Part shown: in pieces, positions 1,384 through 12,170 of the stretch | How positions within the stretch are numbered: the first letter of the stretch is position 1 | How the letters are laid out: the number at the start of each line of letters is the position of its first letter | Source: Escherichia phage WPEC3 | Direction: 5' to 3' (one strand) | Length of the DNA stretch: 64,000 bases | Sequence record: PV611058 | Notes under the pieces: model-generated | What the model saw: only the letters and a program-made list of their open reading frames with translations | Told to the model about the DNA's origin: nothing | Databases searched by the model: none | Translations under genes and position numbers: made by a program

Positions 1384-4300
1384 ATGTACTCGATTAAAAC
1401 AGATCTCGATATAACTGGTGGTGCAACGGTTGGTAAAGATCTTCTTGTGAAAGGCGATGCAGTATTCAATAAAAATCTAACAGTTAATGGAACTGTAACT
1501 TTTGCTGACGCTGTATTCACTGCAATTGAAGCAGGAACTGTAGACATTTCATCTACACTAGATGTTGCTGGTAAAGCATCATTGAATGGTGGAATTGAAG
1601 TTCATGGTAATTCCGTAATTGGTAATTTGCCTGTTGGTTCTGATACTGCAACAATTAATTCTAATGCACAATTCCAAAGCCCAGTATCAATGGCAGGTAA
1701 CCTAACACAAACCGCTGGCACTGCTGTACTAAAAGATACCCAAGTGGCATCAATGGATGTTCTTGGAACTTCTTCATTTAAAGGTAACATTACTGCTGAA
1801 ACTGGCACTACCGCAGCATTTGACAAAATAACTGCAACTGATGCAACATTCACAAACACTGCAACTACTGATATTACATCAACTGGAACTGCAAACTTTA
1901 AAGATGTGAATATTTCCGGTACACTAGGTGGAACATTTAGTCTATCTGATGTTAATGCAACAACTCTAACTGTTTCTGGTTTAACCAGTCTACAAGGTGG
2001 TGTTACATTAGGTTCCAACATTACTGGTGTGAATAGTAGTGCAAACTTCCGTGATATTAAAATTGGTTCCAATGCTGCAAACACTAACTACCGTTTGAGC
2101 TTTAACTATTCTGCTCCAAGTCTTCGTCCAACTGTAATTCTACAGAACGAAATCCAATCAGAATTGATGTCTCCAGCTACCCTAAGTGTATTGAAAACTG
2201 CATCTTTTGGTGATTCGTCATTATCCACTTTTGGTATTACTGGTAATGGTCTAAACAAACTAGATTACCTAACAGTATCTGGTAACTCTGTTCAAGATCC
2301 AACAACTCCACTATTACAAGTAACTTCAGGTAAAACTAAAGTTCATGATTTCGAAGTAACAGGAACTGCAACTATTCCTAACATTGAAAGTACTGGTACT
2401 GCTAATTTTAATAACATCAACGTATCTGGTACACTCGGTGGTACTTTCAGTCTTGATGATATTGAAGCAAACACACTAACTGTATCCGGTTTAACTAGCC
2501 TTGTTGGTGGTGTAACTTTAGGTGCTGATATTTCCGGTGCTAATAGTACTGCTAATTTTAAAGCAGTAAGTTTAGGACAAAACGCCGCCGATGCTAACGT
2601 TAAGTATGGTTTTGCTTATTCTGCCCCTGGTGCTCGTCCAACTGTAATTCTACAAAATGAAATTCAGTCTGAGCTAGTATCTCCAGCAGTACTTAATGTA
2701 CAAAAAACTGCAACCTTTGGTGATGCATCTCTTGCAACCTATGGTATCACAGGTAACGGTCTAAACAAACTAGATTATCTATCTATTACTGGTAATGGTA
2801 CACAAAGTCCAGCTACACCACAACTACAAGTTGCTGGTAAATCAGTACTAAATGATGTTGAATTCACTGGTACTGTAACTGGTCTAACTGTTGATGTGAG
2901 TGGACAAGATCTAACTCCTAAATCAGTAGTTGCTGCTGAAGCAATCAAAGGTCAAACCCTTGAATCAGTTGGTCAAACCACCGTAGGAACTAACCTACAA
3001 GTTGGTGGAACTGCTAATGTTGTTGGTGCACTAACTGGTACTGCTGCTACCTTCACTGGTGATGTAAGTGCTGCTAAAGGTACTTTCAGTGGTGATGTTA
3101 GCGTTACTGGTCAAACTGTAACTGTACGTGATTTAGTAGTAACTGGTACAACTACTGGTGTAACTGCCCAAGCTGATGTTGATGGTCTTGATATCGCCCC
3201 AAATAAAGTTGATGTTACAACAACACTATCTGTTGCTGGGGACACTACTTTAGCTGGCCTAACTGCTAGTTCAGTAACCAGTACTGGTGATGTTACTGGT
3301 GCGTCTGTATCTGGTAATACAGTAACTGCGGCTGGTGCACTATCTGGTGGTTCTCTTGCAGTAACTGGTGCTGGTTCTATGGCTTCACTAACTGTTCCAA
3401 GTATTACTGGTGACACTACTTTTGCTAATAACGTAACTATTACTGGAACACTAACTCCGAGTAGTATAGATTTAAGCACTACTGATGTAAGTGCTGCTTC
3501 TTTAACAACTACTGGTAACGTAACTGTGGGTGGTTCTCTTGCAGTAACTGGTGCTATTGATTTGTCTGCTGCTGATGTAGTAACAAAATCAGTTAGTGCA
3601 ACTAACCCAAGTACATTTGGTGTAATTAATGCATCTTCTGTTGTCGCAACTGGTGACGTTTCAGGTGGTACACTAACTACTACTGGTGCAGCGAAAGTAG
3701 GAACACTAACTAGTACTGGTGTAGTATCTGGTTCGCGTTTGTCTTCTGGTACTGCAACAATCACAACTTCTGTAACAGTTCCAACTTTACAAGCTGAAGC
3801 TGCTGGTGCTGGTACACTAAATCTAGCAAGTAATGTTGTCGCGGCAAAAGATCTAACTGTCACTGGTGTATTCAAACCTGAAGGTGGTCTTGATCTAACA
3901 ACTGTTGATATTACTGCAAACTCACTAACTACTACTGCTGATGTTAATGTTGGTGGAAACTTAGTAGTTGATGGTACTTTTGACCTAAGTGCTGCTGATG
4001 TGTCTGTGAAATCTCTTGCAAGTGCAGAGACAATTACAAGTGCTGGTGTTATTACCGTTACCGATTCAACCAATACTAGTTCGTTACCTAAAATTACTTC
4101 AACTGATGCAACACTCTTTACAGTAAATGCAGGTACTATTAATGCAACTGGCAACAGTGTACTACAAAGTGTATCAGCTACTCAAGTAACTGCTACTAGT
4201 GCTGAATTTTCTGGTGGTGGCCTTGGTCTTCAAGTTGATAATGATGCAAACGTTGGTGGTGCATTATCTGTTGGTGGCATTGCAACTGTTGGTTCTTTAA

Positions 4301-12170: not shown

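What the first reader, a model, noticed from the sequence alone, without database searches (positions are those of the whole stretch)
1384..12170. Two giant paralogous fibre genes with identical nucleotide stretches and internal tandem repeats
The 1638 and 1906 aa proteins share N- and C-terminal domains, and each contains tandem ~165 aa repeats. Several nucleotide segments are identical or nearly so between the genes (about 2881-2990 versus 7788-7895; 3983-4056 versus 9069-9142; 5460-5525 versus 11280-11345). These are substrates for homologous recombination or gene conversion that could shuffle receptor-binding segments and change host range, and they also risk assembly collapse.
Basis: seen in the sequence. 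Interest (0 to 1): 0.5.

Follow-up and report, generated by a model that had tools for sequence, protein, structure and literature searches.

The report
Two recombining giant phage fibre genes
A jumbo E. coli phage carries two neighbouring, related genes for very long virion fibres that keep copying short stretches of sequence into each other, a familiar kind of phage tail-fibre evolution rather than a new mechanism.

Summary
ORFs 1384-6300 (1638 aa) and 6450-12170 (1906 aa) are collinear paralogues: 67% aa and 70.5% nt identity, dS about 0.8. Exact matches of 76, 62 and 47 nt sit in this background.

The window is an Asteriusvirus-like (121Q/phAPEC6 group) E. coli jumbo phage. Ten independent assemblies show the same two-gene layout, so it is not an assembly artefact.

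The identical stretches are gene-conversion footprints:
- They are sharp-edged and identical at every synonymous site (no permutation reached the second-longest run, 0/20,000).
- They are not conserved in more distant homologues.
- Some isolates lack them.

Six isolates carry a further g2-to-g1 tract of about 170-186 nt that the window lacks. Phage TH47 has one clean g1-5'/g2-3' hybrid gene with its crossover at 5544-5553 / 11372-11381. That is either an unequal crossover or a collapse in an unverified record.

Single-copy orthologues (phAPEC6 gp256, CBB_226) were detected in virions by mass spectrometry. The closest solved relative is the 793-aa phiTE fibre (PDB 9CUY chain g).

The C-terminal tips stay distinct (55%). 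The g2 tip is orthologous to the single-copy genes (95-96%). Host-range effects are untested.

Verdict: ordinary but well documented, a new member of a known kind.

The parts
1384..6300 (+). g1: fibre gene, 1638 aa; the extra paralogue, with its own tip type
   Evidence: ORF and translation. PHROG 4549 tail fiber, E = 3e-184. phiTE fibre 9cuy_g, E = 8e-28. The tip is 71% identical to JNE01 g1 but only 55% to g2 and 121Q.
6450..12170 (+). g2: fibre gene, 1906 aa; orthologue of the single-copy gene of 121Q/JP4
   Evidence: ORF and translation. PHROG 4549, E = 4e-203. 9cuy_g, E = 2e-31. The last 120 aa are 95-96% identical to 121Q gp571 and the JP4 gene.
1316..1339 (+). 24-nt promoter-like motif AACTAAATATATGTATATTAACAA, 44 nt upstream of the g1 ATG
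   Evidence: This motif has only two matches in the 64-kb window, with none expected by chance. It is conserved before both genes in all two-gene isolates fetched from the window's clade. Promoter function is inferred.
6380..6403 (+). Second copy of the 24-nt motif, 46 nt upstream of the g2 ATG
1273..1308 (+). Hairpin plus T-run (terminator-like) between the 299-aa gene and g1
   Evidence: Fold -15.2 kcal/mol, z = -4.7; sequence.
6319..6352 (+). Hairpin plus T-run (terminator-like) between g1 and g2
   Evidence: Terminator scan. Fold -13.3 kcal/mol, z = -4.4.
1825..2844 (+). g1 tandem 170-aa repeat, two copies (aa 148-317 and 318-487)
   Evidence: 510-nt spacing in repeat families D2, D4 and D6. 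62-68% aa identity between the copies. Each copy is closer to its positional counterpart in g2 (73-78% nt) than to its neighbour (67%), so the internal duplication predates the gene duplication.
6777..7796 (+). g2 tandem 170-aa repeat, two copies (aa 110-279 and 280-449)
7910..8114 (+). g2 array of six 33-nt (11-aa) units; g1 has two to three units at 3003-3108
   Evidence: Repeat family D9; the extra units appear as gaps in g1 in the protein alignment.
8400..9612 (+). g2 three shaft repeats of about 150-160 aa
   Evidence: Repeat family D5, spacing 450 and 480 nt. 62-74% aa identity between units.
10341..11115 (+). g2-only insertion of about 250 aa, built of 118-123-aa repeats
   Evidence: Gap in g1 in the alignment. 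Repeat family D18, spacing 369 nt. Protein self-matches of 46-62%.
2884..2945 (+). Conversion tract T1, exact copy of 7791-7852 (62 nt); a block of at least 92% identity spans 2835-2985
   Evidence: BF17 g1 and TH47 keep a diverged haplotype here (6 differences). 121Q, JP4 and JNE01 differ at 7-13 positions.
3980..4055 (+). Conversion tract T2, exact copy of 9067-9142 (76 nt), with sharp edges against strongly diverged flanks
   Evidence: TH47 has 8 differences and EC.P1 g1 has 3. More distant homologues differ at 17-25 positions.
5455..5501 (+). Conversion tract T3, exact copy of 11265-11311 (47 nt); a block of at least 92% identity spans 5438-5538
   Evidence: 121Q, JP4 and JNE01 g2 differ at 9-15 positions.
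5544..5553 (+). Site homologous to the TH47 g1/g2 crossover (g2 side 11372-11381), inside an 18-nt tandem unit (5530-5567 / 11357-11396)
   Evidence: 538 of 549 informative sites fit a single switch at this point. 18-nt tandem unit. Short g2-type patches in WPEC5, BF17 and Turkey3 g1 start at the same place.
5599..5767 (+). Polymorphic patch: the window's g1 keeps a g1-specific allele here, whereas six isolates carry g2 sequence (g2 homologue 11427-11613)
   Evidence: In six isolates g1 differs from g2 alleles at 5-25 of 186 columns (5-13 if the divergent Ecwhy_1 and vB_Ec-M-J g2 alleles are left out). It differs from the window's g1 at 67-69 columns, including an 18-nt indel. The flanks differ from the window's g1 at only 2-3 positions.
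5947..6288 (+). g1 C-terminal tip domain (aa 1522-1635)
   Evidence: Aligns to phiTE_241 residues 681-791 with accuracy 0.93. 54% aa identity to g2 in this segment, dS 1.08, and no conversion tract.
11811..12158 (+). g2 C-terminal tip domain
   Evidence: Alignment. 95-96% aa but about 83% nt identity to 121Q and JP4, the pattern of an orthologue under purifying selection.

Best explanation
These are two tandem, separately transcribed paralogues of the giant virion fibre gene of Asteriusvirus-type jumbo coliphages.

g2 is the counterpart of the single fibre gene of 121Q, phAPEC6 and JP4. g1 is an old extra copy with a different C-terminal tip.

Both are all-beta, Thr/Gly/Val/Ala/Ser-rich proteins built from nested repeats, and presumably form trimeric fibres. 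They share one type of N-terminus, which probably anchors them to the virion. They end in different tip domains of about 115 aa, which probably have different binding partners.

Because the copies lie 5 kb apart in direct orientation, ectopic homologous recombination repeatedly copies short tracts (about 50-190 nt) from one into the other. This leaves islands of perfect identity in a background of about 70%. Occasionally recombination resolves as an unequal crossover that fuses the two genes into one hybrid.

Shown here: the paralogy, the conversion tracts and their polymorphism among isolates, the hybrid gene, and (from the literature) virion incorporation of the single-copy orthologues.

Inferred: the trimeric fibre architecture, which end binds what, promoter and terminator function, and the phage's own recombination machinery as the agent.
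For: Paralogy and gene structure:
- The two proteins are collinear over their full length: 67% aa identity, dN/dS 0.34, dS 0.79.
- Each gene is preceded by the same 24-nt motif, found nowhere else in 64 kb.
- Hairpin plus T-run terminator-like elements lie upstream of g1 and between g1 and g2.

Not an artefact:
- The same two-gene layout is found in fEgEco12, EC.P1, WPEC5, CMSTMSU, Ecwhy_1, BF17, Turkey3, vB_Ec-M-J, the more distant JNE01, and an E. coli-assembly contig.

Age and orthology:
- 121Q and JP4 have a single gene at this locus.
- The g2 tip is 95-96% identical to those single genes. The g1 tip is 71% identical to JNE01 g1.

Gene conversion:
- Exact 76-, 62- and 47-nt tracts coincide with runs of identical synonymous codons of 26, 23 and 15. 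Permutation gives P = 0.0025, 0/20,000 and 0.005.
- The tracts differ at 7-25 positions in 121Q, JP4 and JNE01. BF17, TH47 and EC.P1 carry unconverted haplotypes in them.
- Six isolates carry an extra g2-derived tract in g1. It has 5-25 differences from g2 alleles against 67-69 from the window's g1.
- Each isolate, JNE01 included, has its own set of exact g1/g2 matches.
- JNE01's paralogues are 91% identical over the N-terminal 70 aa, against 71% in the window.

Unequal crossover:
- TH47 has one 1652-aa gene with a single g1-to-g2 switch.

Fibre and virion protein:
- PHROG 4549 tail fiber.
- The phiTE fibre 9cuy_g matches both the hinge region and the tip.
- phAPEC6 gp256 (180 kDa, 15 peptides) and CBB_226 (10 peptides) were found in virions.
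Against: - No proteomics or expression data exist for any two-gene phage, so it is not known that both products enter the virion.
- The AlphaFold2 models were poor (pLDDT 46). Fold, oligomeric state and the role of each end are therefore not established.
- TH47 is an UNVERIFIED, unannotated record and could be a misassembly.
- The direction of conversion is inferred by parsimony.
- Intragenomic conversion cannot be separated from ectopic recombination between co-infecting relatives.
- The central shaft of vB_Ec-M-J g2 is a foreign allele. Exchange between phages therefore also shapes these genes.
Confidence: 0.82

Rival explanations
1. The identical stretches reflect strong purifying selection on the protein, plus codon bias, acting on an otherwise uniformly diverging old duplicate. 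No sequence was transferred between the copies.
For: The tracts lie in segments where the proteins are well conserved: g1 aa 488-560 is 89% identical and aa 1291-1400 is 81%. The baseline rate of identical codons at identical residues is already 63%.
Against: - The test used only synonymous codon choice at identical residues and was still significant.
- The same tracts carry 7-25 substitutions in 121Q, JP4 and JNE01.
- Some isolates have diverged haplotypes exactly within the tracts.
- The extra tract in six isolates includes an 18-nt indel and matches the g2 of the same clade.
Confidence: 0.04
2. The two-gene structure, or the identical segments, is an assembly artefact: a falsely duplicated or chimeric assembly of one repetitive gene.
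For: - The genes are highly repetitive.
- One E. coli-assembly contig ends inside g2.
- CMSTMSU and vB_Ec-M-J carry frameshifts in these genes.
- TH47 shows a one-gene form.
Against: - Ten independent assemblies from different countries give the same layout at 97.6-99% identity.
- The copies differ at about 30% of sites, and the longest exact repeats are 76-80 nt, below a 150-nt read length.
- The two tips have separate orthologues in JNE01 and 121Q.
Confidence: 0.02
3. The identical tracts are conserved functional DNA or RNA elements embedded in both genes, for example internal promoters, regulatory RNA structures or dedicated recombination signals. They would be kept identical by selection on the nucleic acid.
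For:
- The TH47 crossover and several micro-conversions cluster at one 18-nt tandem unit.
Against: - The tracts differ between isolates and lineages, and JNE01 has different tracts in other places.
- The tracts are not conserved in single-copy relatives.
- The promoter scan found fewer sigma-70-like sites than in shuffled sequence (27 against 46).
- No RNA-family search was run.
Confidence: 0.05
4. g1 did not arise by duplication in place. It was acquired as a second fibre gene from another Asteriusvirus-like phage. The patches of identity arose mainly through recombination between co-infecting phages rather than within one genome.
For: - g1-g2 divergence (70.5% nt) is about the same as the divergence of either gene from 121Q (72-73%).
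- The vB_Ec-M-J g2 shaft, and the window versus BF17 alleles of the g1 patch (19% apart), show imports from unsampled lineages.
Against: - The upstream 24-nt motif is duplicated together with the gene.
- The converted tracts closely match the g2 alleles of the same clade (5-13 differences in 186 columns).
- The two tip types are each orthologous across JNE01 and the window's clade, so the pair is old and inherited together.
- This rival changes the origin of g1, not the recombination mechanism.
Confidence: 0.15

Closest known systems
phAPEC6 gp256, 121Q gp571 and CBB_226: the giant 'tail fiber' or 'long tail fiber proximal subunit' of RaK2-like jumbo phages (Asteriusvirus, Mimasvirus)
   Same: - Same locus: 299-aa structural gene, fibre gene, DUF4376 protein, 654-aa protein, thymidylate synthase.
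- Same N-terminus (MYSIKTDL...).
- Same repeat architecture.
- The g2 tip is 95-96% identical to those of 121Q and JP4.
- These orthologues were detected in virions by mass spectrometry.
   Different: Those phages have one gene of 1553-2129 aa. The window's clade and JNE01 have two, with a second tip type.
Pectobacterium phage phiTE tail fibre phiTE_241 (793 aa; PDB 9CUY/9MJN chain g; Vequintavirinae)
   Same: Sequence homology in the hinge and shaft (g1 382-646 against phiTE 207-519) and in the C-terminal tip (g1 1522-1635 against phiTE 681-791). The paper describes trimeric fibres that attach to the baseplate wedge and have long predicted beta-helical shafts.
   Different: - The phiTE protein is half to a third the length.
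- Its N-terminal 200 residues have no counterpart here.
- The parts homologous to g1/g2 are not resolved in the map.
- My assignment of chain g to the paper's 'LTF' is an inference from its length.
Mosaic and paralogous tail-fibre genes of other phages: recombination at conserved motifs in T-even gp37/gp38, and LtfA/LtfB of the T5-like phages DT57C and DT571/2
   Same: Related fibre genes, or segments of them, exchange pieces by homologous recombination at short conserved stretches. Paralogues share a proximal part and differ distally. This rests on my own knowledge; the DT57C paper (PMC4728585) was only listed, not read.
   Different: Here the exchange is documented between two tandem full-length paralogues of 1600-1900 aa within one genome. 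The tracts lie in the shaft and the region just before the tip, not in an identified adhesin.
T4 gp34 (long tail fibre proximal subunit), the label used in several GenBank records
   Same: A large, repetitive, presumably trimeric fibre protein of a myovirus.
   Different: There was no detectable sequence match to any Pfam or NCBIfam model, or to any PDB chain other than the phiTE fibre, even at E <= 10. No gp35-37-like partner genes lie downstream.

Membership tests
PHROG 4549 / phiTE_241-type myovirus tail fibre | Significant sequence match to the family profile | tested here: met
   phrog_4549 E = 3e-184 for g1 and 4e-203 for g2. 9cuy_g E = 8e-28 and 2e-31.
PHROG 4549 / phiTE_241-type myovirus tail fibre | Shared C-terminal tip domain | tested here: met
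   g1 1522-1635 aligns to phiTE_241 681-791, domain i-E-value 5e-9, accuracy 0.93.
PHROG 4549 / phiTE_241-type myovirus tail fibre | Shared N-terminal baseplate-attachment module (the resolved residues 14-171 of the phiTE long tail fibre) | tested here: not met
   No alignment reaches phiTE residues before 207. The attachment module therefore differs or is too diverged to detect.
PHROG 4549 / phiTE_241-type myovirus tail fibre | Trimeric beta-helical fibre structure | tested here: inconclusive
   The AlphaFold2 monomer models are mostly beta-strand (one short helix in the C-terminal model) but have pLDDT of only 46 and 45.5. No multimer prediction was available.
Virion structural protein of RaK2-like jumbo phages | Detected in purified virions | not testable with these tools
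   This is shown only for the single-copy orthologues phAPEC6 gp256 and CBB_226. No proteome of a two-gene phage was found.
T4 gp34 long tail fibre proximal subunit | Sequence homology to gp34 | tested here: not met
   No Pfam or NCBIfam family matched, and the only PDB match at E <= 10 is the phiTE fibre.
RaK2 gp098 (baseplate secondary receptor-binding protein) | Sequence homology and synteny | tested here: not met
   tblastn of g1 and g2 against RaK2 45-95 kb, which includes g098, gave no hit at E <= 1e-3. The gene context also differs. The CBB paper states that CBB_226 has no RaK2 homologue.
Interparalogue gene conversion (concerted evolution of tandem duplicates) | Tracts whose identity, including synonymous sites, far exceeds the background | tested here: met
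Interparalogue gene conversion (concerted evolution of tandem duplicates) | Tracts polymorphic among closely related genomes, with the converted allele matching the resident paralogue | tested here: met
Interparalogue gene conversion (concerted evolution of tandem duplicates) | Tracts not conserved in more distant homologues | tested here: met
   7-25 differences in 121Q, JP4 and JNE01.
Programmed fibre-switching systems (Mu Gin / P1 Cin invertible segments, shufflons) | Inverted repeats flanking alternative fibre segments in opposite orientation | tested here: not met
   No inverted repeat of 22 nt or more in 1-13100. Both genes are on the + strand. No recombinase search was run.
Diversity-generating retroelement targeting a fibre tip | Template/variable repeat pair with adenine-specific differences, plus a reverse transcriptase | not tested
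   No reverse-transcriptase search was run. Nothing suggested such a system: the differences between the copies are not adenine-specific, and the identical tracts lie in the shaft.

The most novel reading that the evidence does not exclude
g1 and g2 may encode the so far unassigned, roughly 120-nm whisker-like 'hairs' seen on the tails of phAPEC6, CBB and fEgEco12. The two paralogues would populate different attachment rings or carry different tips. Recombination between them would then continually produce hybrid hair variants within phage populations.

Support is only circumstantial:
- At the length-per-residue ratio of the phiTE fibre, the proteins scale to about 100-123 nm, against measured hairs of 119 +/- 10 nm.
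- The baseplate fibres seen by EM are only about 29 nm.
- RaK2 lacks a homologue of these genes. That no hairs have been reported for RaK2 is my reading of the CBB paper, which says no other RaK2-like phage had been described with them.
Probability: 0.15. Interest if true: 0.55.

Novelty: new member of a known kind. Interest (0 to 1): 0.33.

Why it matters
- For phage-therapy candidates of the 121Q/phAPEC6 group, this locus is a variable, recombining part of the virion.
- Copy number (one or two genes), length (1553-2129 aa) and internal patches all differ between isolates that are otherwise 98-99% identical.
- Fibre genotype therefore cannot be inferred from overall genome similarity, and short-read assemblies of this locus deserve checking.
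- The locus is a clean natural example of concerted evolution in a virus. Tract lengths of about 50-190 nt can be read directly from isolate comparisons.
- It does not reveal a new mechanism. Its effect on host range is unknown.

Tried and rejected
Searches and predictions that led nowhere:
- The three homologous-protein searches were nearly useless. Low-complexity words swamped the candidate list, or nothing was found.
- As a result the alignments for structure prediction were very shallow. Both AlphaFold2 models came out at pLDDT about 46, so I ran no fold search.
- Pfam and NCBIfam gave no family for either fibre protein.
- Exact-protein look-ups for g1 and g2 found nothing.
- An IMG/VR scan with the g1 tip found one distant locus (41% identity), which I did not follow up.
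- The supplements of the phiTE paper are not held, so the identity of chain g could not be confirmed.

Ideas considered and rejected:
- Homology to RaK2 gp098: no BLAST hit and a different gene context.
- An invertible-segment switch: no inverted repeats.
- The GenBank labels 'colanic acid-degrading protein' (WPEC5 g1) and 'flagellar hook-length control protein' (CMSTMSU fragments): no supporting domain hit.

A statistic I abandoned:
- I counted g1-polymorphic sites at which one allele equals the g2 state (180 of 212). It is uninformative without polarisation, so I did not use it.
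Full report
**What is there**

The window holds two long same-strand ORFs, 1384-6300 (g1, 1638 aa) and 6450-12170 (g2, 1906 aa). A protein alignment shows they are collinear over their whole length. Identity is 67% at the amino-acid level and 70.5% at the nucleotide level in aligned codons (58% at third positions). Overall dN/dS is 0.34 and dS is 0.79. So they share more than N- and C-terminal domains.

The extra length of g2 comes from more repeat units:
- six 11-aa units against two to three in g1;
- a g2-only block of about 250 aa made of 118-123-aa repeats.

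Each gene has a two-copy 170-aa (510-nt) tandem repeat near its N-terminus. Each copy is closer to its positional counterpart in the other gene than to its neighbour, so this internal duplication predates the gene duplication.

The proteins are 62% Thr+Gly+Val+Ala+Ser. tblastn of g1 found no similar sequence elsewhere in the window.

**The identical stretches**

Exact g1/g2 matches are 76 nt (3980-4055 = 9067-9142), 62 nt (2884-2945 = 7791-7852) and 47 nt (5455-5501 = 11265-11311). At the right offsets the segments score 103/110, 73/74 and 63/66.

I then restricted the test to codons that encode the same residue in both genes. The longest runs of identical codons are 26, 23 and 15. In 20,000 permutations these were reached with frequency 0.0025, 0 and 0.005 respectively. 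Protein conservation alone does not explain them.

**Where it comes from and whether it is an artefact**

The region is 97.6-99% identical, over its full length, to seven E. coli jumbo phages: EC.P1, WPEC5, fEgEco12, CMSTMSU, Ecwhy_1, BF17 and Turkey3. These belong to, or sit next to, the genus Asteriusvirus (121Q/PBECO4/phAPEC6 group).

All seven carry the same two genes. So do vB_Ec-M-J, the more distant JNE01 (1628 and 2120 aa) and a contig in an E. coli assembly. These come from different laboratories and countries. At least fEgEco12 is a 150-bp Illumina assembly, and the longest exact repeats (76-80 nt) are shorter than such reads. A false duplication or collapse in the window is therefore very unlikely.

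121Q and JP4 have a single gene at the same locus, 1841 and 2129 aa.

**Which copy is which**

Over the last 120 aa, g2 is 95-96% identical to the single genes of 121Q and JP4. Nucleotide identity there is only about 83%, the pattern expected of an orthologue under purifying selection. g1 is 55% identical to g2 and 121Q in this region, but 71% identical to JNE01 g1. JNE01 g2 is 74% identical to g2.

The pair is therefore old, the two tip types are inherited as separate orthologous lineages, and g2 corresponds to the single-copy gene. The N-terminus of 121Q, including a 53-aa segment that g2 lacks, is closer to g1. The single-copy genes are therefore themselves mosaics relative to this pair.

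**Evidence for gene conversion**

1. The three tracts have sharp edges against diverged flanks.
2. They are not conserved in more distant homologues. 121Q, JP4 and JNE01 differ at 7-25 positions within them.
3. They are polymorphic among close isolates.
   - BF17 g1 and TH47 keep a diverged haplotype in tract 1 (6 differences).
   - TH47 has 8 differences in tract 2, and EC.P1 g1 has 3.
4. Six isolates (fEgEco12, EC.P1, WPEC5, CMSTMSU, Ecwhy_1, vB_Ec-M-J) carry an additional tract in g1, homologous to window 5599-5767 / 11427-11613.
   - There, g1 differs from g2 alleles at 5-25 of 186 columns (5-13 without the divergent Ecwhy_1 and vB_Ec-M-J g2 alleles).
   - It differs from the window's g1 at 67-69 columns, including an 18-nt indel.
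   - The flanks differ from the window's g1 at only 2-3 positions.
   - The window's g1, and in a version 19% diverged from it those of BF17 and Turkey3, keep a g1-specific allele.
5. Every isolate has its own list of exact g1/g2 matches. JNE01 has different ones (89 and 44 nt) in the N-terminal part. Its paralogues are 91% identical over the first 70 aa, against 71% in the window.

Together these show recurrent, independent, short-tract transfer between the paralogues.

**A hybrid gene**

TH47 (MT446416, UNVERIFIED, unannotated) has one 1652-aa gene at the locus. Of 549 sites that distinguish the window's g1 from g2 in the 3' 1.4 kb, 538 fit a single switch from g1-type to g2-type. The switch lies between g1 5544 / g2 11372 and g1 5553 / g2 11381.

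This point is inside an 18-nt tandem unit and about 45 nt downstream of tract 3. Short g2-type patches in WPEC5, BF17 and Turkey3 g1 begin at the same place.

It is the product expected of an unequal crossover that deletes about 5.8 kb. Because the record is unverified, an assembly chimera cannot be excluded.

**Exchange with other phages**

vB_Ec-M-J g2 is nearly identical to the window's g2 in its first 400 nt or so and its last 900 nt or so. Its central 4.4 kb is only about 68-80% identical and has no close match in the phage collection.

The shaft is therefore the most exchangeable part, while the g2 tip is the most conserved. This is the opposite of what one would expect if the tip were a rapidly changing host-range determinant.

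**What the proteins are**

- Both match PHROG 4549 'tail fiber' (E = 1e-184 to 1e-203).
- In the PDB they match only the 793-aa 'putative tail fiber protein' of Pectobacterium phage phiTE (9CUY/9MJN chain g = phiTE_241). The match covers both the hinge and shaft and the C-terminal 115-aa tip.
- The phiTE paper describes trimeric baseplate-attached fibres with long predicted beta-helical shafts. The regions homologous to g1/g2 are not resolved, and the N-terminal attachment module of the phiTE protein has no counterpart here.
- Pfam and NCBIfam give nothing. There is no sequence support for the GenBank label 'long tail fiber proximal subunit' (T4 gp34), nor for 'colanic acid-degrading protein' or 'FliK'.
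- An exhaustive HMMER search of 1.84 billion representative proteins found only 44 relatives, so the family is narrow.

**Virion incorporation**

The syntenic single-copy orthologues were detected in purified virions by mass spectrometry: phAPEC6 gp256 (180 kDa, 15 peptides) and CBB_226 (10 peptides). RaK2 gp098 is unrelated.

**Transcription units**

Hairpin plus T-run terminator-like elements lie upstream of g1 (1273-1308) and between g1 and g2 (6319-6352). Each gene is also preceded by the same 24-nt motif, AACTAAATATAWGTATATTAACAA (1316-1339, 6380-6403). This motif occurs nowhere else in the 64 kb and is conserved in all two-gene isolates fetched from the window's clade.

The duplication therefore included the upstream control region. 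That these elements act as promoter and terminator is an inference.

**Mechanism and rivals**

The best-supported account is an old tandem duplicate of the virion fibre gene, kept as two genes with different tips. It undergoes recurrent ectopic homologous recombination, mostly as short-tract conversion and occasionally as unequal crossover.

Relatives such as RaK2 encode T4-type recombination proteins gp46/47 and gp49. From general knowledge of T4-like phages, recombination on homologies of a few tens of base pairs is efficient. That this machinery acts here is inferred.

Four rivals were weighed and rated low:
- selection plus codon bias;
- an assembly artefact;
- functional nucleic-acid elements embedded in both genes;
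- horizontal acquisition of g1 followed by recombination between co-infecting phages.

The last of these changes only the origin of g1, not the recombination process.

**Novelty**

Mosaic and paralogous tail-fibre genes that recombine at short conserved stretches are well known in phages such as the T-even and T5-like groups. Tandem gene duplication has been proposed as a route of jumbo-phage genome growth (quoted). I found no paper that describes this particular pair or its conversion tracts.

This is a well-documented new example of a known process, not a new kind of system.

The most novel reading still open is that these proteins are the unassigned tail 'hairs' of about 120 nm in this phage group. 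It rests only on a length scaling and on a loose presence/absence correlation.

Noticed in passing
window 53107-55836 (-) and 56453-59149 (-): A second pair of tandem paralogues: 909 and 898 aa, both phrog_3573 of unknown function, 26% aa identity over their full length. This is an older tandem duplication in the same window.
   Followed up: partly
window 1316-1339 and 6380-6403: The 24-nt motif AACTAAATATAWGTATATTAACAA occurs only upstream of g1 and g2 in the 64-kb window. It is conserved in all two-gene isolates fetched from the window's clade and once in TH47. An exact search did not find it in the 121Q or CBB loci. It may be a gene-specific promoter or regulatory site.
   Followed up: partly
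window 8117-9754 (-), 3111-4154 (-), 5277-6095 (-), 11027-11833 (-): Long antisense ORFs (up to 545 aa) lie inside g1 and g2. They are probably a by-product of the ACT/GGT/GCA/GTA-rich codon usage, whose reverse complements contain no stop codons. I did not test them as genes.
   Followed up: no
window 366-1265 (+) and the gene upstream in relatives (L001 4826-6967): The 299-aa virion structural protein shares its N-terminus (MAVFSNLEGTM...) with the neighbouring 713-aa 'colanic acid-degrading' tailspike-like protein of relatives. This may be a shared attachment module.
   Followed up: no
window 12237-13016 (+): The 259-aa protein just downstream of g2 has a DUF4376 domain and weak PHROG 'tail fiber' hits. 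Its CBB orthologue CBB_225 is a virion protein. It could be a fibre partner or adaptor.
   Followed up: no
L009 (vB_Ec-M-J) about 8500-13100; L005 (CMSTMSU): The central shaft of vB_Ec-M-J g2 (about 4.4 kb) is a divergent allele with no close match in the phage collection. vB_Ec-M-J g1 and both CMSTMSU genes are broken by frameshifts in the deposited records. These may be sequencing errors or pseudogenisation.
   Followed up: partly
L018 (E. coli assembly GCA_051180675.1, contig ABZNOM010000061.1): An 8.1-kb contig in a bacterial assembly carries the 299-aa gene, a 1644-aa g1 and the first 546 aa of g2, and ends inside g2. This is phage DNA in an E. coli assembly. The break shows that assemblers can stall in this region.
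   Followed up: no
L017 (IMGVR_UViG_3300007747_000008, 174-kb contig) 10001-10423: This was the only IMG/VR locus found with the g1 tip as query, at 41% identity. It may be a distant relative carrying the same tip domain.
   Followed up: no
window 26198-27292 (-), 29244-31907 (-), 60009-61841 (-): Context genes: tail tube, tail sheath and an NrdD-like anaerobic ribonucleotide reductase. Also present are a thymidylate synthase orthologue, an HNH endonuclease and two nucleotidyltransferases. This is ordinary for this phage group.
   Followed up: no
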